DNA of 64,000 nucleotides, taken from assembly GCA_002687175.1 (NCBI GenBank), contig NYZP01000001.1, positions 149,607-213,606 on the forward strand. The letters are read 5' to 3'. Source of the DNA: Parcubacteria group bacterium (lineage in GTDB: Bacteria > Patescibacteriota > Patescibacteriia > Buchananbacterales > UBA6539). The translations under genes and the position numbers were made by a program. Below the pieces are notes generated by a model, which searched no databases, was not told the origin of the DNA, and saw only the letters and a program-made list of their open reading frames with translations. Position 1 is the first letter of the stretch. Each line of letters starts with the position of its first letter. Below are positions 7,206-58,401 of this stretch, one piece after another.

Positions 7206-8789
7206 TTAAAAATCTTTCTTATGTCTAACTATTTTTTGATAATTAATAGCAAACCGATGAGCTTCGTCCCTGATTCGTTGCAAAAGCTTCAACGAGTCGG
7301 CTTTCTTGCTTAATCTTAACGGAAATTTACTATATAAAGTATAAATCTCCTCATTTTTCTTGGCAAGGGCAATTAGCGGAACATCTTGCAGACCTAATTC
7401 CCTTAAAGACTGCTTGGCTGCTGAAAGTTGCGGCTTACCGCCATCCACCATCACCAAATCTGGCATTTTTGATTTTTCTTTGGTGATTTTATAGTAACGA
7501 CGAAACACAACTTCTTTCATCGCATCAAAATCTGATTGACCACGAACAGTTTTAACTTTAAATTTGCGATAATTATTTTTATCGGGCTTGGCATCTTTAA
7601 AATGAACCATAGAACCAACTACTCCAGTTGGTCCAAGGTTAGAAATGTCAAAGCATTCAATTATGCGTGGCAACTTTGGTAAATTTAATTTATTTTGTAG
7701 CTCCAGTAAGCTGGAATCGCCGGCGGTTAAGTTAACTTCAATATTTTTCTTAACCATCTTTAACAATTTTAACTTGTCACCTTTCTGTGGCACAAACAAC
7801 ACCACTTTACTACCAGACAACTTTGATAAATATTTATTAATCACTTCAGCGTCAGCAAACTTAACTGGCACGATGATTTCTTGGGGAATGTCATTACTGT
7901 AATAAAACTGTTTGATAAACTCTGCTACTTCCTCGACCACACTACGTCCAGGAAGCTTTTGTAATTTAAACTCTTTACGACCAGAAATTATGCCTTTATT
8001 GATGTTAAACAGTTGTACAACAATTTTGTTCACTATTTCTAAGTAGTTGATAACGTCTTGATTATATCTTTTTTGCAGCTGAACTTTTTGACGAATAGCT
8101 AAATTTTCCAAAGCATTGATCTGATCACGACGCAGTTTGGCCAGCTCATACTTTTTCTGGGTAGAAAACTTTTTCATTTCTACTGCTAAATTTTTAACTA
8201 ACACTTTAGTATCACCTTTAAGTAGCAAGATTGCCTTGGCTAAATTATTTTGATAATCTACTTCGCTCATCTTTTGAACAAATGGTACCGAAGAGCTATG
8301 GTAATGATAAAGCTCACCCACCTTTTTTACTTTACCACCAACCCGTAACTTAAACAGTTGATTGGCTAACCGGATGGCATTTTGTCTGGCCGACCCAGAC
8401 GTATATGGTCCAAACACTTGATCACCTTTTTTTATCACTCTAGTCACCACCAAACGAGGAAAAAGTTCCGTCGTCACTTTAATATAAGCGTAGCAGACGC
8501 TGTCTTTAAGTTCAATGTTGTATTTTGGTTTATGTTGACGGATTAATCCGGCTTCAAGCAGTAAGGCTTCAACTTCATTGTCAGTTATTATAAATTCAAC
8601 GTCATTAATCTGTTTCACTAAGTCTTTAGTCTTAGCATCTTGATTTTTTGAACGAAAATAAGATGGAACACGCTTAGCTAAACTTTTTGCTTTACCAATA
8701 TAAATAACTTTACCCCCAGCATTTTTAAATAAATAACATCCTGGCTGCTTAGGTATTTTTTTTAATTTAGTTTTTAATAATTTTGTCAT
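7206..8789 (-). CDS. uvrC: Excinuclease ABC subunit C (UvrC), short form
   Basis: N-terminal GIY-YIG (GCYLFKNAGGKVIYIGKAKSLAKRVPSYF). C-terminal RDEAHRFAINY endonuclease motif. Confidence 0.85.
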   Translation of the reverse strand: MTKLLKTKLKKIPKQPGCYLFKNAGGKVIYIGKAKSLAKRVPSYFRSKNQDAKTKDLVKQINDVEFIITDNEVEALLLEAGLIRQHKPKYNIELKDSVCYAYIKVTTELFPRLVVTRVIKKGDQVFGPYTSGSARQNAIRLANQLFKLRVGGKVKKVGELYHYHSSSVPFVQKMSEVDYQNNLAKAILLLKGDTKVLVKNLAVEMKKFSTQKKYELAKLRRDQINALENLAIRQKVQLQKRYNQDVINYLEIVNKIVVQLFNINKGIISGRKEFKLQKLPGRSVVEEVAEFIKQFYYSNDIPQEIIVPVKFADAEVINKYLSKLSGSKVVLFVPQKGDKLKLLKMVKKNIEVNLTAGDSSLLELQNKLNLPKLPRIIECFDISNLGPTGVVGSMVHFKDAKPDKNNYRKFKVKTVRGQSDFDAMKEVVFRRYYKITKEKSKMPDLVMVDGGKPQLSAAKQSLRELGLQDVPLIALAKKNEEIYTLYSKFPLRLSKKADSLKLLQRIRDEAHRFAINYQKIVRHKKDF

Positions 8790-8826
8790 CAGTTTTATAT
8801 TTTTTATCTTAACACAGCAATTTTTA

Positions 8827-8855
8827 TTGACAAACCCAAATAGATATGATATACT
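8827..8855 (+). promoter_or_regulatory. Near-consensus sigma70 promoter, TTGACA-N17-TATACT
   Basis: TTGACA at 8827-8832, a 17-nt spacer, TATACT at 8850-8855. Confidence 0.45.
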
Positions 8856-8907
8856 AATGGTAGTAGATGTTCATCAATGTTTTTATATACTACTGGAGGA
8901 TTTTCTC

Positions 8908-9027
8908 ATGCATACGGACAGCTACTATCGCACATTTGGTAGGCAAAAACGCAGTCCACTCGATTTTTCCTTCGGGATTTATCACTTCTTCAGAAATTGG
9001 AGAGAAATAATTGGACTAAAGCCATAA
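8908..9027 (+). CDS. Candidate small basic/aromatic protein of 39 aa (or sRNA) with its own promoter, SD and terminator
   Basis: GGAGG at 8895-8899 is 8 nt upstream of the ATG at 8908. Product MHTDSYYRTFGRQKRSPLDFSFGIYHFFRNWREIIGLKP. Followed by the hairpin AGCGTC-tctcgaca-GACGCT plus a T-run. Confidence 0.3.
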   Translation: MHTDSYYRTFGRQKRSPLDFSFGIYHFFRNWREIIGLKP

Positions 9028-9140
9028 ATCCGAATGGATCCACTCGGCACAAAGCGTCTCTCGACAGACGCTTTTGCCATCTGTAAAATACAAGACGCCT
9101 ATTATTAAAAGGCTGTTTTTTTATTTCATTATCATTTGCT

Positions 9141-11969
9141 TTAGTATCTCAACATCCTTTTTAAGTATTTTCCAGTATAACTCCACTTGGCACACTTAGC
9201 TATTTTTTCTGGAGTACCTTCAGCAATCACCCGTCCACCTTTGTCGCCACCTTCTGGTCCCAGATCAATTACCCAGTCAGCACATTTAATGACATCTAAA
9301 TTATGCTCAATTACTACCACAGTATTACCTTTGTCGGTTAAGCGATACAAAACATTTAATAATTTATTAACATCATCAAAATGTAATCCAGTGGTTGGTT
9401 CATCTAAAATATACAGAGTATCACCACCTTTACGAGAAAGTTCGGAAGTTAATTTAATGCGCTGGGCTTCTCCTCCAGACAAAGTGGTGGCTGGCTGACC
9501 TAAAGTAATATAACCAAGCCCTACATCAAACAGTGTTTGTAATTTATTTTTGATGGCTGGAATATTTTGAAAAAATACCAGGGCTTCTTCAACCGTCATT
9601 TTTAAGACATCAGAGATGTTTTTATTTTTATATTTAATTTCCAAGGTATCTTCATTGTATCTTGTGCCTTTACATTTTTCACACTCAATGTAAACATCCG
9701 GCAGAAAATTCATCTCAATTTTTTTAACGCCATCACCTTCACACTCTTCACACCGTCCGCCATGAACATTAAATGAAAACCGCCCAGGTTTATAACCTCG
9801 AGTTTGGGCTTCTTTAGTTTTAGCAAATAATTCTCTAGTTGGTGTAAACACTCCAATATAAGTAGCTGGGTTAGATCTTGGTGTCCGGCCAATTGGTGAC
9901 TGGTCAACAATAACCGCTTTTTCTAATTTTCCAAATCCTTTAATTTCTTTATGCTTACCTGGTTTATCGTTTGTCGCCCAAAATATTTTGTATAAAGATT
10001 TATATAAAATATCGTTTATCAAACTACTTTTACCTGAACCGGAGACACCGGTAACACAGGTTAAAACTTTTAATGGAATTTTAACGTTGATGCTTTTTAA
10101 ATTATTCTCTTCAGCCTCAAAAATTTCTAAATAATCAAAAGCTCTACGTCTCTTCTCCGGAATTATAATATTTTTTTTATTACTGATGTAATCTCCGGTA
10201 ACTGAATTTTTAGCTTTAGCAATATTCTTGGGATCTCCCGAAAAAACAACTTCCCCACCGTGAATCCCTGCTCCTGGACCTAAATCAATAACATGATTGG
10301 CGGCATGGATAGTTTCTTCATCGTGTTCGACTACCACTACCGTATTTCCTAGGTCACGTAATTTTTTTAAGGTACTTATTAACTTTTCATTGTCTTTTTG
10401 GTGTAAACCAATTGATGGTTCATCTAAAATATAGAGTACTCCGCGAAGTTCTGAACCAATTTGAGTAGCTAAACGTATTCTTTGGGCTTCACCACCAGAT
10501 AAAGTCCGAGCACTACGAGCTAAGTTCAAATAATCTAGGCCAACATTAATTAAAAACTGCAACCGACTATAAATTTCTCGTAAAATTAGCGTGGCAATGA
10601 TCGTTTCTTGTTTATTGAGCTTTAAATCCTTAAAAAATTTTAATAACTTATCAATTGATAGCTCACTGATTTGCCAAATATTTTTGTCACCGACAGTGAC
10701 CGCTAAAATTTCTGGCTTTAATCTTTTACCGTCACAGGTTTGACAAGGTCCAGTACGCATATACTTTTCAATTTCCCGACGACGATACTCTGACTCCGTT
10801 TGATTATATAATCTTTTCAGTTGAGGAATAACACCTTCAAACTTACCGTACCAGTTATAGCTTGATCCTGTTTTGCTGGAGCTTAGATTAAATCTCATTT
10901 CTTCATCTGACCCATTTAAAATGATGTTCTGGACTTTTTTAGATATATCTTTCCAGGGAGTGAACATATCAAAACCATGTTTATCGGCCAAACCATCCAG
11001 CAACTGTTTGCGCCAACCCTCGCCATGGGTTTGCCATGGTCTAACAGCACCTTCAGATAATGATAAATTTTCATTGGGTATTACTAATTCTTGATCAACA
11101 CTTTGTAAGAAGCCGAGACCGTGACACTGTTCACAGGCACCAAATGGTGAGTTAAAAGAAAATGACCGCGGTTGAAATTCTTCCATCGAAATACCACAGT
11201 CCAAGCAGGCATTGTGTTGGGAAAATAATTTTTCTTTCTTGCCCACTATAGCCAAAATCAAACCATCGGCTTCGTGCAACGAAGTTTCTACCGCTTCCGA
11301 CAACCTATTGTTTATTCCTTTTTTTAAAGCCAAACGATCAACAATTATTTCAATATCATGTTTGACCTGTTTGTTAAGTTTAATTTTATCGCCATCAGAT
11401 AATTCATAAACTTTATTATCAACACGTACCCGACTAAAACCACGTTCCTCGAAATCTTTAAATAACTGTTCATATGTCCCTTTTTTGCTTCTGATAACCG
11501 GTGCTAAAATCTGTACCTTTGATCCTATTTTTTCTTGCAACAAAATTTTGGTAATAGTTTCCGCTGATTGTGAGTAAATTCTTTTCCCACACTTTGGGCA
11601 GTGCGGTACTCCCACTCGAGCATAAAGTAAACGCAGATAATCAGAAACTTCAGTAATGGTACCAACCGTTGATCGCGGATTCTTGGAAATTGATTTTTGT
11701 TCAATCGAAATGGCTGGAGATAAACCCTGAATCTTGTCAACGTCGGGTTTATTCATTAAGCCCAAAAACTGCCTGGCATAAGCTGACAATGATTCAACAT
11801 AGCGACGCTGACCCTCTGCATATAAAGTGTCAAATGCTAAAGTTGATTTGCCTGAACCAGACAAACCAGTAATTACGGTTAATTCATCGATTGGAATTTC
11901 AACGTTAATATTCTTAAGATTATGCTCTCTGGCACCTTTTATAGATATTTTATTACTGTTCTTGGACAT
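9141..11969 (-). CDS. uvrA: Excinuclease ABC subunit A (UvrA)
   Basis: [35 protein letters not shown]. Two ABC modules with LSGGE signatures and zinc-finger Cys pairs. 942 aa. Confidence 0.95.
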
Positions 11970-11983
11970 AATTTAACTTTTCA

Positions 11984-12012
11984 TTGACAATTTAATTAAT
12001 TTATGATATAGT
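11984..12012 (+). promoter_or_regulatory. Near-consensus sigma70 promoter, TTGACA-N17-TATAGT
   Basis: TTGACA at 11984-11989, a 17-nt spacer, TATAGT at 12007-12012. AAGGAG lies 9 nt before the ATG at 12060. Confidence 0.5.
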
Positions 12013-12059
12013 GCGTAGTTAAAATAGAAACTAAAACGTTCTTCAAGGAGATCTTTAAC

Positions 12060-12533
12060 ATGATTACGTTCATGGAGAAGCCCGCTACACAAGAGGTAAT
12101 TACTCCTACTCAAGCCAGAGACAGGATCTCAAACAGGGAAACGCTCAGCGGTTTTAAGATCAACGGTGATCTGGACCTACGAGGTCTTAGAACTCCTGGA
12201 CATCTGAACATTCGTGGAGTCACCATCGATGGCGATCTCCTGCTTACTGGGGCAAACATTGGCCAAGGCCTAGATATTGGCGATGCCGATGTTTGGGGTC
12301 TAGTCAATCTTTCTCGGATCAATGTCGGCGGAAAACTTTTCCTACTTGGTACTAAAGTTGGCACATCGTTGAGCTTGTTTCGAGCCACCATCGTTGATGA
12401 CATCAATCTGCATAAAGCAGAAGTGGCTGGCATGATCGACCTAACCGGTACAAACATCGTATCTGGAAAATTAATCACCGGCAATATGCAAGTTGGTCGT
12501 GTCCACGGAGGTGTTGCTCTCTTGGCTTCTTAG
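12060..12533 (+). CDS. Pentapeptide-repeat-like protein of atypical (higher) G+C
   Basis: Continuous 5-residue periodicity (GDLDL RGLRT PGHLN IRGVT IDGDL LLTGA NIGQG LDIGD ADVWG LVNLS RINVG ...). GC-rich codons (ctg, ggc, atc), unlike the flanking uvr genes. Confidence 0.55.
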   Translation: MITFMEKPATQEVITPTQARDRISNRETLSGFKINGDLDLRGLRTPGHLNIRGVTIDGDLLLTGANIGQGLDIGDADVWGLVNLSRINVGGKLFLLGTKVGTSLSLFRATIVDDINLHKAEVAGMIDLTGTNIVSGKLITGNMQVGRVHGGVALLAS

Positions 12534-12560
12534 TCATCTGGCAAAAACACGCCACATACC

Positions 12561-12600
12561 CCCTCAATGAATTTTATTCGTTGAGGGTTTTTATTTTTAT
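12561..12600 (+). terminator. Intrinsic terminator
   Basis: CCCTCAA-tgaattttattcg-TTGAGGG followed by TTTTTATTTTTAT. Confidence 0.55.
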
Positions 12601-42497: not shown

Positions 42498-42522
42498 AAT
42501 TTTTACTAAAATAAGCCATCCG

Positions 42523-42594
42523 CTCCGAGGGCCGGATTCGAACCGGCAACCAATTGATTAACAGTCAACTGCTCTACCATTGAGCTACCTCGGA
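42523..42594 (-). tRNA. tRNA-Asn(GTT), copy A
   Basis: Minus strand reads TCCGAGGTAGCTCAATGGTAGAGCAGTTGACTGTTAATCAATTGGTTGCCGGTTCGAATCCGGCCCTCGGAG. Anticodon loop is CUGUUAA. Confidence 0.85.
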
Positions 42595-42683
42595 GCACAT
42601 GGCTCATTTTTTACTCTATTGCGCTATATTCTAATTTTAAAGTCTTTGACGGAAACCGGTCGGTCAGAAACGCTTCCGGTCTC

Positions 42684-42755
42684 CTCCGGGGGTCGGATTC
42701 GAACCGACAACCAATTGATTAACAGTCAACTGCTCTACCGTTGAGCTACCCCGGA
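42684..42755 (-). tRNA. tRNA-Asn(GTT), copy B (variant stems)
   Basis: Same fold with compensatory changes (CCCCGGA..GTCGG/CCGAC). Confidence 0.8.
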
Positions 42756-42845
42756 GCACATGGCTCATTTTTTTGCTCTACAAACTATATTTTAAATTTT
42801 CAAGCCCCTGACAGGAACCGGTCGCTTTGGAAAGCGTCCGATCTC

Positions 42846-42917
42846 CTCCGAGGGCCGGATTCGAACCGGCAACCAATTGATTAACAGTCAACTGCTCTAC
42901 CATTGAGCTACCTCGGA
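42846..42917 (-). tRNA. tRNA-Asn(GTT), copy C
   Basis: Identical to copy A. Confidence 0.85.
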
Positions 42918-42957
42918 ACTTAATTCTCCTTAATTACTTTTACCTTCTAAACCTTGA

Positions 42958-51065: not shown

Positions 51066-51168
51066 AAATAATACCTATATAGTATAGCCACAATTTATCC
51101 ATTTGACAACCTAAAACAGTAATGATATCATTTTTATTATTCCAATAAACTATTTTGTTTTATTGGTA

Positions 51169-51293
51169 GGGCTTGTAGCTCAGGGGTAGAGCGTCTGAGA
51201 CCAACATTTTAATCAATCAGTGAGGGTACCCGATCTGTGCGATGATGTTGGAAAATCAGAAAGTCAGGGGTTCAAATCCCTTCAGGCCCACCA
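51169..51293 (+). tRNA. tRNA (Ile-like acceptor and T-arm) with a ~50-nt intervening sequence in the anticodon loop; anticodon unresolved
   Basis: GGGCTTG-TA-GCTCAGGGGTAGAGC-G-TCTGA-[57 nt: GACCAACAT...ATGTTGGAAAA]-TCAGA-AAGTC-AGGGGTTCAAATCCCTT-CAGGCCC-A-CCA. The insert has a 7-bp stem CCAACAT/ATGTTGG. Followed by TTTTTT. Confidence 0.55.
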
Positions 51294-51310: not shown

Positions 51311-51390
51311 GCTGGGGTAGCTCAGTGGTAGAGCTGTTGACTTCTTCGGATAGTTGATGGTCGGGGGTTCAAATCCCTCCTCCAGCTCCA
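51311..51390 (+). tRNA. Atypical tRNA, candidate tRNA-Arg(UCG) with an apparently extended (8-bp, G:U-rich) anticodon stem
   Basis: GCTGGGG-TA-GCTC-AGTGGTA-GAGC, anticodon loop CUUCGGA, GGGGG-TTCAAAT-CCCTC T-arm, CTCCAGC-T-CCA. There are 28 nt between the D and T stems where 22-23 are expected. Direct repeat GTTGA...GTTGA. Confidence 0.45.
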
Positions 51391-57825: not shown

Positions 57826-58401
57826 CTACGGGCAAACACCGTCTGAGATACCTGAAGGTGTCGCACATTTATCACCACCACTTAAATCACCCGCTCCACC
57901 TTCTAAGTAAAAGTCTATTGTATAGGTGACACATTCCCCAAAATCTTCACAAGCTATAGGTACCTCATCACCAGTCTCGGCCGCGTAAACAAAATCATAA
58001 GTTGGTGATTGTGGATCATCTGGTACTAAACCAATATATATCGGATCACTGCAACTTGTATCAAATCCACCACCATCAAGACAATCTACATCTACTCCTA
58101 AGGTATAGCTGCTACTAGCACCGAGATCTGGATAGCTGGTGTTAGAATTAAAAAATAGCTCAAGGGCTGTCTGAATATTTTTAACGTCAGCGACCCTTTT
58201 GGCATCTCGTGATTTCTCGCGAGCTGAGTCTAAAGCAATAGCGGCAAAAGTTGCTAACAGGCCAATAATAGCAATAACCACTAAGAGTTCTATTAAAGTA
58301 AACCCAGCACCTTTTTTAGATGTTAAGTGGTTAGATTGTTTATGTCCCAGCAAAAGGTGCTGGGTAAAACCTTTTTTCTTCATGTTTCCACCTCCTTTCA
58401 A
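57826..58401 (-). CDS. Type IV pilin
   Basis: KKGAGFTLIELLVVIAIIGLLATFA. Confidence 0.65.
   Translation of the reverse strand: MKGGGNMKKKGFTQHLLLGHKQSNHLTSKKGAGFTLIELLVVIAIIGLLATFAAIALDSAREKSRDAKRVADVKNIQTALELFFNSNTSYPDLGASSSYTLGVDVDCLDGGGFDTSCSDPIYIGLVPDDPQSPTYDFVYAAETGDEVPIACEDFGECVTYTIDFYLEGGAGDLSGGDKCATPSGISDGVCP

What the first reader, a model, noticed from the sequence alone, without database searches (positions are those of the whole stretch)
8790..9140. Consensus promoter, SD, 39-aa ORF and terminator cassette in the uvrC-uvrA spacer
A TTGACA-N17-TATACT promoter points away from uvrC. A perfectly spaced GGAGG follows, then a 39-codon ORF encoding a basic, aromatic-rich peptide, then a hairpin terminator. 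It is a candidate small protein or sRNA antisense to the uvrA 3' end region.
Basis: seen in the sequence. Interest (0 to 1): 0.5.

Follow-up and report, generated by a model that had tools for sequence, protein, structure and literature searches.

The report
Unannotated small-protein gene splitting uvrA–uvrC
The uvrA–uvrC gap of this marine Parcubacteria (CPR) genome holds a real, never-annotated transcription unit for a 39-residue protein of unknown function, which is also present in two related lineages and looks foreign to its host genome.

Summary
Window 8827-9122 (+) carries TTGACA-N17-TATACT with an extended -10 TG, GGAGG 8 nt before ATG 8908, a 39-codon ORF (8908-9027), a 13-bp hairpin and a second weak hairpin with a U7 run.

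The window is a Parcubacteria-group bacterium (CPR), so bacterial signals apply. In two related lineages (UvrC 74-75% identical) the same module is present: a homologous promoter, TAGTAG at the predicted start site, GGAGG, ATG, an ORF of 41 or 43 codons and two terminator hairpins. Hairpin 1 is kept by different sequence.

The peptide evolves fast: 47% identity between the two relatives and 26% to the window. It has no other homologue in any database searched. All three peptides share a basic N-terminus and an amphipathic C-terminal helix, with no transmembrane segment.

Other relatives have uvrA and uvrC adjacent or overlapping, so the module is an insertion. Insert genes have SD sites and high GC3. 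Host genes lack SD.

Against coding: the ORF's codon usage is extremely atypical for the host, and promoter and terminators are better conserved than the ORF. No Rfam family or conserved RNA fold was found.

Best reading: a strongly expressed, horizontally acquired, fast-evolving orphan small-protein gene. The transcript stops before the uvrA coding sequence.

The parts
8790..8826 (+). A/T-rich region upstream of the -35 hexamer. It is UP-element-like. In relatives it corresponds to the T-tract of the preceding gene's terminator.
   Evidence: Alignment A1: TTTTTTATCTTAA...AATTTT is conserved in L166 and L168. Identity is 59-62% to the window and 82% between the relatives.
8827..8855 (+). Sigma-70-type promoter: -35 TTGACA (8827-8832), 17-nt spacer, extended -10 TGaTATACT (8847-8855). 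It points away from uvrC.
   Evidence: 11/12 match, TG present. (only perfect match in 64 kb, 0.09 expected at <=1 mismatch). Conserved at 65-79% in L168 and L166.
8861..8866 (+). Conserved TAGTAG at the predicted transcription start (about 8862-8863, inferred from -10 spacing).
   Evidence: Invariant in all three lineages. The start site itself is an inference; no transcript data exist.
8895..8899 (+). Shine-Dalgarno GGAGG, 8 nt upstream of the ATG.
   Evidence: Conserved as AAGGAGGAT (L168) and CAGGAGGGC (L166). It is unusual in this genome: only 4/43 annotated-length ORFs, or 11/51 with generous start choice, have any SD-like 4-mer. Only 4-5 loci in the window have a full (A)GGAG(G) before a long ORF.
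8908..9027 (+). 39-codon ORF plus TAA: MHTDSYYRTFGRQKRSPLDFSFGIYHFFRNWREIIGLKP. The N-terminus is basic and disordered, and the C-terminus is an amphipathic helix (about residues 17-34).
   Evidence: Positional orthologues of 41 aa (P0121, L168/L169) and 43 aa (P0122, L166). AF2 gives a helix at 17-34 with pLDDT 66. Amphipathic moment is 0.75-0.81 in all three, with no TM segment.
9046..9078 (.). 13-bp hairpin (GGCA-AAAGCGTCT / AGACGCTTT-TGCC), equally stable on both strands. It is a likely bidirectional intrinsic terminator for the sORF transcript (+) and for uvrA (-).
   Evidence: -18.7 and -18.4 kcal/mol, z = -6.3 and -5.5. (I3). Relatives have a hairpin of different sequence (CCGACCAC..GTGGCCGG plus a T-run) at the same place.
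9092..9122 (+). Second, weak hairpin (GCCT..AGGC core) followed by TGTTTTTTT: a back-up terminator.
   Evidence: -6.8 kcal/mol, not better than shuffles. The ...AGCTGTTTTTT motif is conserved in L166 and L168, 59-62% to the window and 85% between the relatives.
8806..8833 (-). Candidate uvrC promoter (TTGTCA-16-TAAGAT with TG). Its -35 hexamer occupies the same bases as the sORF -35 (back-to-back divergent promoters). This is inferred only.
   Evidence: 9/12, TG present. It is not conserved in relatives, where uvrC is not adjacent to this module.

Best explanation
The spacer is an independent, monocistronic, strongly expressed gene for a 39-residue protein. It is transcribed divergently from uvrC and convergently with uvrA.

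**Proposed mechanism (inferred steps marked)**
- RNA polymerase starts at about 8862 from a near-consensus extended -10 promoter (inferred).
- A leader of about 45 nt carries a GGAGG that recruits the ribosome to ATG 8908 (inferred).
- Transcription ends at a 13-bp hairpin, backed up by a hairpin with a U7 run, before reaching uvrA.

**The product**
It has a basic, disordered N-terminal half and a C-terminal amphipathic helix. The conserved pattern is F-x-R-x-x-R-x-I. It has no membrane-spanning segment. It most likely acts by binding a partner, either a protein or a membrane surface, rather than as an enzyme or pore. This is an inference.

**Evolutionary context**
- The gene belongs to a fast-evolving, foreign-looking set of opposite-strand cassette genes.
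- These genes have been inserted into the ancestrally contiguous uvrA-uvrC junction in one Parcubacteria subclade.
- They use SD-led translation and GC3-rich codons. The host genes of that genome are SD-less and often look leaderless.

**Side effect**
The insert uncouples uvrC from uvrA. The palindromic hairpin probably also terminates uvrA transcription, and uvrC then needs its own promoter. This too is an inference.
For: **Shown**
1. All signals are present, and the promoter is far beyond chance.
2. The host is a bacterium (Parcubacteria group, CPR). Evidence: PilM, type IV pilins and an M23 peptidase in the window, and source names on identical and related UvrC proteins.
3. The module recurs in L166 and L168/L169 (UvrC 74-75% identical to the window). 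The recurrence covers a homologous promoter, TAGTAG, GGAGG, ATG, M-x-T-(P/D)-S, ORFs of 43 and 41 codons, TAA, hairpin 1 and hairpin 2.
4. Hairpin 1 is maintained by a completely different sequence in the window. This indicates selection on the structure.
5. p41 and p43 are 47% identical. Their length difference is an in-frame 6 nt. Their C-terminal halves differ mostly by synonymous or conservative changes (L/I, I/V, F/L).
6. Window versus p41 gives 26% identity with a global-alignment shuffle p = 0.005.
7. All three peptides share the same architecture.
8. The sORF divergence scales with the host. UvrC is 87% identical between L166 and L168 against 47% for the sORF. The neighbouring cassette proteins are only 32% and 21% identical.
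9. Relatives L170, L172, L173, L187 and L188 have uvrA and uvrC overlapping or <=10 nt apart, so the spacer is an insertion.
10. In all five insert-bearing lineages the insert genes have SD sites and higher GC3, while host genes have neither.
11. Other GGAGG-led genes in the window include a pilin-like ORF, so SD probably marks high expression.
Against: - Host-trained codon statistics reject the ORF as typical host coding sequence. The synonymous-usage score is -0.255 against a host value of 0.267 +/- 0.143, and 0 of 3000 host windows score as low. For example, TTC is used 4 times and TTT twice, although the host uses 89% TTT.
- Between L166 and L168 the substitutions show no third-position excess ([17, 13, 16]; 5 synonymous against 21 non-synonymous codon changes).
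- Promoter and terminators are better conserved than the ORF body. The ORF body is 31-36% identical between the window and the relatives, which is near random.
- Window versus p43 similarity is not significant (p = 0.12), and local alignments are not significant.
- Other frames of the cassette are open for 40-64 codons too, so openness alone is weak evidence.
- No gene caller has ever called this ORF.
- No homologue exists beyond the two relatives in 5.8 billion clusters or 1.84 billion representatives.
- There are no transcript or peptide data.
- About half of Parcubacteria reportedly lack the anti-SD motif (PMC9297842). The 16S rRNA 3' end of this organism could not be examined.
Confidence: 0.55

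Rival explanations
1. Non-coding reading. The conserved unit is a promoter plus terminators producing a 215-260-nt RNA, and the ORF is incidental. It could work in two ways. The RNA could be antisense to uvrA-to-uvrC read-through RNA. Alternatively, the convergent transcription and the bidirectional hairpin could insulate or tune uvrA and uvrC expression.
For: - Promoter and terminators are more conserved than the ORF body.
- Codon usage is strongly non-host-like.
- There is no third-position bias.
- The peptide is an orphan.
- The hairpin is equally stable on both strands.
- The -35 hexamer overlaps a candidate uvrC -35 on the other strand.
Against: - GGAGG and ATG at SD spacing are conserved in three lineages of a genome type that rarely uses SD.
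- ORF length is kept at 39, 41 and 43 codons, with an in-frame indel.
- The C-terminal half of p41 and p43 is conserved at the amino-acid level.
- There is no Rfam hit.
- RNAalifold finds no conserved fold outside the terminators, and the covariation term is unfavourable.
- In L166 and L168 the module is 0.6-1 kb away from uvrC, behind two other genes, so a uvrC-specific role is not conserved.
Confidence: 0.25
2. Decaying remnant. The window retains only the last unit of a larger three-gene cassette seen in relatives (119-138 aa, 130-136 aa, then the sORF). The ORF is drifting without function.
For: - The window lacks the two upstream cassette genes present in L166 and L168.
- The window peptide is barely alignable to p41 and p43.
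- Codon usage is atypical.
- Hairpin 2 is weaker than in the relatives.
Against: - The promoter is a perfect consensus-class match with an extended -10.
- SD, ATG and the open frame are intact.
- Hairpin 1 has been rebuilt from different sequence into an even stronger stem. This indicates continuing selection.
- The spacer is identical in five independent assemblies.
- The divergence is what the family's fast rate predicts.
Confidence: 0.12
3. Toxic or exported peptide. Candidates are a type I toxin with an antisense RNA antitoxin (as near SOS or DNA-repair genes in E. coli), or a double-glycine-leader bacteriocin-like or PSM-like amphipathic peptide.
For: - Small size, strong promoter and fast evolution.
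- Cationic amphipathic C-terminal helix.
- p41 has a leader-like S..DI....GG motif (sequence inspection).
- Location among uvr genes.
Against: - There is no hydrophobic transmembrane stretch: the maximum 19-residue Kyte-Doolittle mean is 0.11-0.61.
- GG is not conserved. p43 has GLG and the window has a single G.
- There is no convincing antisense promoter inside the unit.
- There is no C39-peptidase or ABC exporter next to it.
- There is no PADLOC, Pfam or NCBIfam match.
Confidence: 0.06
4. Chance co-occurrence of motif look-alikes in an A/T-rich spacer.
For: Promoter-like sites in general are not enriched in 8000-10000: 8 found against 6.7 expected.
Against: - The composite promoter is unique in 64 kb.
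- The whole module is conserved in order and spacing in two other lineages, at E = 1e-74 to 1e-96 with a profile.
Confidence: 0.02

Closest known systems
Bacterial sORF-encoded small proteins (under 50 aa) missed by annotation, as catalogued in E. coli and other model bacteria (own knowledge)
   Same: It has its own promoter, an SD, an ATG, an ORF of about 40 codons and an intrinsic terminator. It lies in an intergenic gap, is not called by gene finders, and has an amphipathic helix as its only structural element.
   Different: It has no transmembrane helix, although many known small proteins are membrane-bound. It evolves very fast. Its codon usage looks foreign. The host is a CPR bacterium whose own genes are largely SD-less. 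No function or partner is known.
Dual-function sRNAs (S. aureus RNAIII/delta-haemolysin, E. coli SgrS/SgrT, B. subtilis SR1/SR1P) (own knowledge)
   Same: A 200-260-nt monocistronic transcript with a short ORF and a strong terminator. The RNA-level signals are better conserved than the peptide.
   Different: There is no conserved RNA fold or seed region outside the promoter-proximal TAGTAG and the SD. There is no Rfam match. No target is known.
Type I toxin-antitoxin loci linked to DNA-damage genes (tisB/istR-1, dinQ/agrB) (own knowledge)
   Same: A small ORF with strong expression signals, located among DNA-repair genes.
   Different: The peptide is not hydrophobic. No antisense RNA gene was found. 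No LexA-like box was recognised by eye.
SD-led genes in SD-poor lineages, for example rpsU in Bacteroidia, where an SD on one small basic protein's mRNA stands out against an SD-less genome (own knowledge; anti-SD loss in Parcubacteria from PMC9297842)
   Same: A strong GGAGG precedes a small basic protein gene in a genome where most genes lack SD.
   Different: There is no similarity to bS21 or to any ribosomal protein family. Several other SD-led genes exist in the window, including a pilin-like ORF and the 157-aa insert gene. The anti-SD status of this organism is unknown.

Membership tests
Sigma-70 (housekeeping) promoter | -35 TTGACA and -10 TATAAT hexamers 16-18 nt apart, optionally with an extended -10 TG. 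| tested here: met
   11/12 match, 17-nt spacer, TG present. Unique in the window. Conserved in relatives. Activity was not tested.
Intrinsic (Rho-independent) terminator | G+C-rich hairpin immediately followed by a U-run. | tested here: inconclusive
   Hairpin 1 is very stable, but its 4 U's lie within the stem. Hairpin 2 has a U7 run but a weak stem. The consensus scan called neither. Both are positionally conserved, and in relatives they have canonical T-runs.
Protein-coding small ORF | Conserved start signals and reading frame across orthologues. | tested here: met
   GGAGG, ATG and ORFs of 39, 41 and 43 codons at the same position in three lineages. The indel is in-frame.
Protein-coding small ORF | Amino-acid-level conservation or purifying selection. 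| tested here: inconclusive
   p41 to p43: 47% identity with conservative changes in the C-terminal half, but no third-position excess. Window to p41: 26%, p = 0.005. Window to p43: p = 0.12.
Protein-coding small ORF | Codon usage like the host's genes. | tested here: not met
   The synonymous-usage score is 3.6 sd below the host mean, and 0 of 3000 host windows score as low. This is compatible with foreign origin, since the 157-aa insert gene is atypical too.
Protein-coding small ORF | Evidence of translation (Ribo-seq, peptide or reporter). | not testable with these tools
   No expression data are available.
Any described RNA family (Rfam 15), tRNA or tmRNA | Covariance-model match at or near the gathering score. 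| tested here: not met
   Only chance-level hits at E >= 4. No gathering-level hit in the spacer. ARAGORN found none there.
Structured or base-pairing sRNA | Conserved secondary structure with covariation. | tested here: not met
   RNAalifold on three orthologues: the covariation term is +2.23 (unfavourable), and only the terminator helices are shared. Power is low with three sequences.
Type I toxin | Hydrophobic transmembrane helix in a peptide under 60 aa, plus an overlapping antisense RNA. | tested here: not met
   The maximum 19-residue hydropathy is 0.11-0.61. There is no credible internal antisense promoter.
Double-glycine-leader bacteriocin | Conserved GG (or GA/GS) cleavage motif and an adjacent C39-peptidase ABC exporter. 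| tested here: not met
   GG occurs only in p41. No exporter gene is adjacent.
Known protein families (Pfam, NCBIfam, PHROGs, PADLOC, PDB sequences) | Significant profile match. | tested here: not met
   there were no matches, apart from one PHROG of unknown function at E = 0.042.

The most novel reading that the evidence does not exclude
The uvrA-uvrC junction (and the uvrB-uvrA junction) of this Parcubacteria subclade is a hotspot. It collects horizontally acquired, rapidly diversifying expression cassettes whose genes keep consensus promoters and strong SD sites in genomes that otherwise translate SD-less, leaderless-type mRNAs.

Under this reading the 39-43-aa cationic amphipathic peptide is an arms-race effector. 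It could be directed at the host cell of this presumed episymbiont, at phages, or at the ribosome's anti-SD. Its expression signals are under stronger selection than its sequence.
Probability: 0.12. Interest if true: 0.7.

Novelty: new member of a known kind. Interest (0 to 1): 0.4.

Why it matters
Small proteins of CPR/Patescibacteria are essentially unexplored, and automatic annotation missed this one in five independent assemblies.

If the peptide is made, it defines a new orphan family with three members so far. It is a handle on a variable insertion site that breaks an otherwise conserved DNA-repair operon.

The contrast is consistent across five lineages: insert genes are SD-led and GC3-rich, while host genes are SD-less and often leaderless-like. 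This could serve as a practical marker for recently acquired genes in these genomes. It also bears on the open question of how translation initiation works in Parcubacteria, about half of which are reported to lack the anti-SD motif (PMC9297842).

If the unit is only a non-coding transcription unit, it is an ordinary case of operon interruption with a bidirectional terminator.

Tried and rejected
1. **Archaeal origin.** The first genome scan with UvrC returned DPANN archaea as best hits. I therefore considered a TATA-box or leaderless reading. This was rejected. The window encodes PilM, type IV pilins and an M23 peptidase. Identical or 60-75% identical UvrC proteins are from Parcubacteria or Buchananbacteria. 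The pattern-based scans simply did not contain close relatives.
2. **Known RNA families.** Searches for SRP, RNase P, 6S, tmRNA, riboswitches and tRNA found nothing.
3. **Conserved RNA structure.** None was found beyond the terminators.
4. **Alternative ORF 8867-9010.** This is a 47-aa ORF with a hydrophobic N-terminus. Its ATG is absent in L166 and L168, so it was rejected.
5. **Frameshifted homology of the window to p41 or p43 in other frames.** None was found.
6. **Peptide homologues.**
   - The word-index search with the window peptide found none, and the same search with the three-sequence profile returned only P0121 and P0122.
   - Full HMMER against 1.84 billion representatives found only P0121 and P0122 plus repetitive false positives.
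   - Searches of PDB sequences, phages, plasmids and viral contigs also found none.
7. **Promoter-motif scan of viral contigs.** The 12 hits are generic extended -10 promoters at about the chance rate.
8. **Repeats or mobile-element ends flanking the insert.** Nothing convincing was found. The only features are the -10 duplication ATATACTAATGG / ATATACTACTGG and T-tract similarity.
9. **Additional copies of the cassette.** A search of the window and 188 fetched loci found none.
10. **More relatives.** P0005, P0007 and P0011 were fetched. Their contigs are too short or have no spacer.

Full report
**1. What is in the sequence**

The 351-bp spacer 8790-9140 lies between the start of uvrC (7206-8789, minus strand) and the stop of uvrA (9141-11969, minus strand). 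On the plus strand it contains the following elements.

| Element | Coordinates | Source |
|---|---|---|
| -35 TTGACA | 8827-8832 | |
| Spacer | 17 nt | |
| TGa-TATACT (extended -10) | 8847-8855 | (11/12 match) |
| GGAGG | 8895-8899 | |
| ATG, 8 nt after GGAGG | 8908 | |
| 39-codon ORF ending TAA | 8908-9027 | |
| 13-bp hairpin | 9046-9078 | |
| Weak hairpin with U7 run | 9092-9122 | |

- The peptide is MHTDSYYRTFGRQKRSPLDFSFGIYHFFRNWREIIGLKP.
- The 13-bp hairpin has a free energy of -18.7 kcal/mol and z = -6.3 against shuffles. It is equally stable on either strand.
- The simple terminator scan did not call either hairpin. The U's of hairpin 1 are inside its stem, and hairpin 2 has only a 4-bp G+C core.
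- The composite promoter motif is the only perfect match in 64 kb. At <=1 mismatch there are three hits against 0.09 expected. The other two sit in front of a tRNA gene (51103) and in front of another opposite-strand ORF between uvrB and uvrA (11984). This is therefore the strong-promoter type of this genome.

**2. Which organism**

A first pattern-based scan with UvrC returned DPANN archaea at <=46% identity. That briefly raised an archaeal reading. It is wrong, for two reasons.
- The window encodes PilM, type IV pilin-like proteins, an M23 peptidase, a histidine kinase and GlpX.
- The exact UvrC occurs on five contigs, including GCA_002434675.1 and a 242-kb Tara Oceans scaffold. It is named as from a Parcubacteria group bacterium. 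Homologues at 52-65% identity are from Patescibacteria or Candidatus Buchananbacteria.

Bacterial promoter, SD and terminator logic therefore applies.

**3. Not a known RNA**

- Rfam at E <= 10 on 8600-9400 gave only chance hits.
- The whole window at gathering thresholds gave only tRNAs.
- ARAGORN found nothing in the spacer.
- Single-sequence folding is modestly better than shuffles on both strands (z about -2.5 to -2.7). The terminator hairpins are the main stable elements.

**4. Relatives**

UvrC homologues at 73-75% identity were traced to their contigs. Homologues at about 65% identity were traced as well.
- **No spacer:** in L170, L172, L173, L187 and L188, uvrA and uvrC overlap or are <=10 nt apart. 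A tight uvrA-uvrC junction is therefore the common state, and probably the ancestral one.
- **Spacer with opposite-strand ORFs lacking any Pfam family:** the window, L166, L167, L168/L169 and L171.
  - L166 has ORFs of 119, 130, 43 and 165 aa.
  - L168 has ORFs of 138, 136 and 41 aa.
  - L167 has ORFs of 124 and 65 aa.
  - L171 has a 68-aa hydrophobic ORF.

**5. The module is conserved**

blastn links window 8800-8866 to the region just upstream of the 41-aa ORF of L168 (74% over 69 nt, E = 2e-4). It also links it to the region upstream of the 43-aa ORF of L166.

The three-way alignment shows conserved features in the same order and spacing:
- an A/T-rich upstream tract;
- (T)TGACAAA;
- TATGnTATACT;
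- TAGTAG at the predicted start;
- GGAGG;
- ATG followed by M-x-T-(P/D)-S;
- an ORF of 39, 41 or 43 codons ending in TAA;
- hairpin 1 plus a T-run;
- hairpin 2 (…GCTGTTTTTT).

Hairpin 1 is CCGACCAC..GTGGCCGG in the relatives and GCGTCT..AGACGC, extended to 13 bp, in the window. The structure is preserved by different sequence.

A nucleotide profile of the module finds only these lineages among 1.78 Mb of held sequence, and no second copy in the window.

Identity by segment:

| Segment | Window vs relatives | L166 vs L168 |
|---|---|---|
| Promoter (-35 to -10) | 65-79% | 74% |
| ORF body | 31-36% | 60% |
| Terminators | 50-62% | 85-93% |

**6. Is the ORF coding?**

For coding:
- SD and ATG are conserved at the correct spacing.
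- The ORF length is conserved, and the only length difference between L166 and L168 is an in-frame 6 nt.
- The C-terminal halves ATDLFIRFCRKIWSFA and ATDIFVRLCRAIWSSA differ by synonymous and conservative changes.
- MAFFT finds nine invariant columns across the three peptides (M1, T3, S5, R8, G23, F, R, R, I).
- Window versus p41 is better than 99.5% of shuffles in global alignment.
- All three peptides have net positive charge, many aromatic residues, no transmembrane stretch and a strongly amphipathic C-terminal segment.
- AF2 predicts one helix at residues 17-34 with a mean pLDDT of 66.
- The divergence is in proportion to the rest of the cassette. UvrC is 87% identical between L166 and L168, the sORF 47%, and the neighbouring cassette proteins 32% and 21%. 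At 74-75% UvrC identity, near-saturation of the sORF is expected.

Against coding:
- Substitutions between L166 and L168 show no third-position excess (17/13/16).
- Window versus p43 is not significant.
- Other frames are open for 40-64 codons as well.
- The ORF's codon usage is far outside the host range. The synonymous score is -0.255 against 0.267 +/- 0.143, and none of 3000 host windows is as low. GC3 is 0.44 against 0.28 for the host.
- No gene caller has recorded this ORF.
- No homologue exists apart from P0121 and P0122.

**7. Foreign-looking signals**

The atypical codon usage has a coherent explanation.
- In all five insert-bearing lineages the insert genes have SD sites (GGAGG, GGAG or GGGGAG) and GC3 of 0.42-0.72.
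- The flanking host genes have GC3 of 0.28-0.46 and no SD. Several have a TATAAT box 6-8 nt before the ATG.
- In the window only 4 of 43 long ORFs have any SD-like 4-mer at the annotated start, or 11 of 51 with any candidate start.
- -10-like hexamers pile up 6-12 nt upstream of start codons (15 hexamer occurrences across the 42 ORFs; several per position against about one elsewhere). This suggests many leaderless or near-leaderless mRNAs.
- A few window genes do carry a full AGGAGG. These include a pilin-like ORF (57826-58383) and the 157-aa insert gene (12060-12533). SD-dependent initiation therefore probably works here and may mark high expression.
- The literature reports that the anti-SD motif is undetectable in about half of Parcubacteria (PMC9297842). 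The 16S rRNA of this organism is not in the window, so this could not be checked.

**8. Relation to uvrA and uvrC**

Both hairpins precede the uvrA stop codon (9141-9143). A terminated transcript therefore does not overlap the uvrA coding sequence.

The following points are inferences.
- Hairpin 1 is a perfect two-way hairpin flanked by A's and T's. It probably also stops uvrA transcription.
- uvrC would then depend on a promoter inside the spacer.
- The best candidate is TTGTCA-16-TAAGAT with TG (8833 to 8806, minus strand; 9/12). It shares its -35 bases with the sORF promoter.

**9. Comparison with known systems**

The unit works like a classical small-protein gene. It could also be a dual-function RNA.
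- It fails the defining features of type I toxins: there is no hydrophobic helix and no antisense RNA.
- It fails those of double-glycine bacteriocins: GG is not conserved and there is no exporter.
- It matches no described RNA or protein family.
- It is best filed as a new orphan member of the known kind 'unannotated bacterial small-protein gene'.

**10. Verdict**

- That it encodes a functional 39-aa protein is the best-supported reading, but it is not secure (about 0.55).
- A non-coding or insulating role (about 0.25) and a decaying remnant (about 0.12) remain open.
- Interest is moderate. The gene itself is ordinary in kind. The context deserves follow-up with metatranscriptomes and more genomes: a variable, fast-evolving, SD-led cassette site splitting the uvr operon in SD-poor CPR genomes.

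Noticed in passing
window 51169-51290 (+), with neighbour 51311-51390: A tRNA gene matches the Rfam tRNA model end to end (53.7 bits) but has 57 nt where the 7-nt anticodon loop should be. This implies an insertion or intron of about 50 nt in the anticodon loop of a bacterial (CPR) tRNA. ARAGORN did not call it. The adjacent tRNA-Lys(CTT) also has a lengthened anticodon region. A TTGACA-N14-TGATATCAT promoter sits at 51103.
   Followed up: partly
window 11984-12600 (+): A second opposite-strand insert lies in the uvr cluster, between uvrB and uvrA. It has a near-consensus promoter (11984), an SD AAGGAGA, a 157-aa repeat-rich ORF (12060-12533) that looks like a beta-helix or pentapeptide repeat protein, and a strong terminator (about 12560-12595). 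GC3 is 0.45 and there is no Pfam, NCBIfam or PADLOC family. Its codon usage is atypical, like that of the sORF.
   Followed up: partly
L166 2094-3903, L168 296-1514, L167 3240-3944, L171 3712-3918: The uvrA-uvrC junction of related Parcubacteria holds different sets of orphan, SD-led, GC3-rich opposite-strand genes. One is a 119-138-aa family with a W-x-E-Y-N-I-P-G-R-T motif (32% identity between genomes whose UvrC is 87% identical). Others are a 130-136-aa family (21% identity), a 65-aa Cys-rich protein and a 68-aa hydrophobic protein. None has a match in Pfam, PHROGs or, where scanned, PADLOC and NCBIfam (the 68-aa ORF was scanned only against Pfam and PHROGs).
   Followed up: partly
whole window, and host genes in L166, L168 and L171: Most genes lack a Shine-Dalgarno sequence (4/43 to 11/51). 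-10-like hexamers cluster 6-12 nt upstream of start codons, for example gcTATAATaaaatatATG. This suggests widespread leaderless or very short-leader mRNAs in this Parcubacteria clade.
   Followed up: partly
window 42522-42918 (-): Three tandem tRNA-Asn(GTT) genes lie at a spacing of about 161 nt.
   Followed up: no
window 8849-8860 and 8885-8896 (+): The -10 region ATATACTAATGG is repeated 36 nt downstream as ATATACTACTGG, directly abutting the SD. L166 has CATACT at the same place and L168 lacks it. It could be a second start site or a pause element.
   Followed up: no
L168 1640-1745: G+C-rich palindromic hairpins (REP-like) lie between uvrC and the first cassette gene in L168 only.
   Followed up: no
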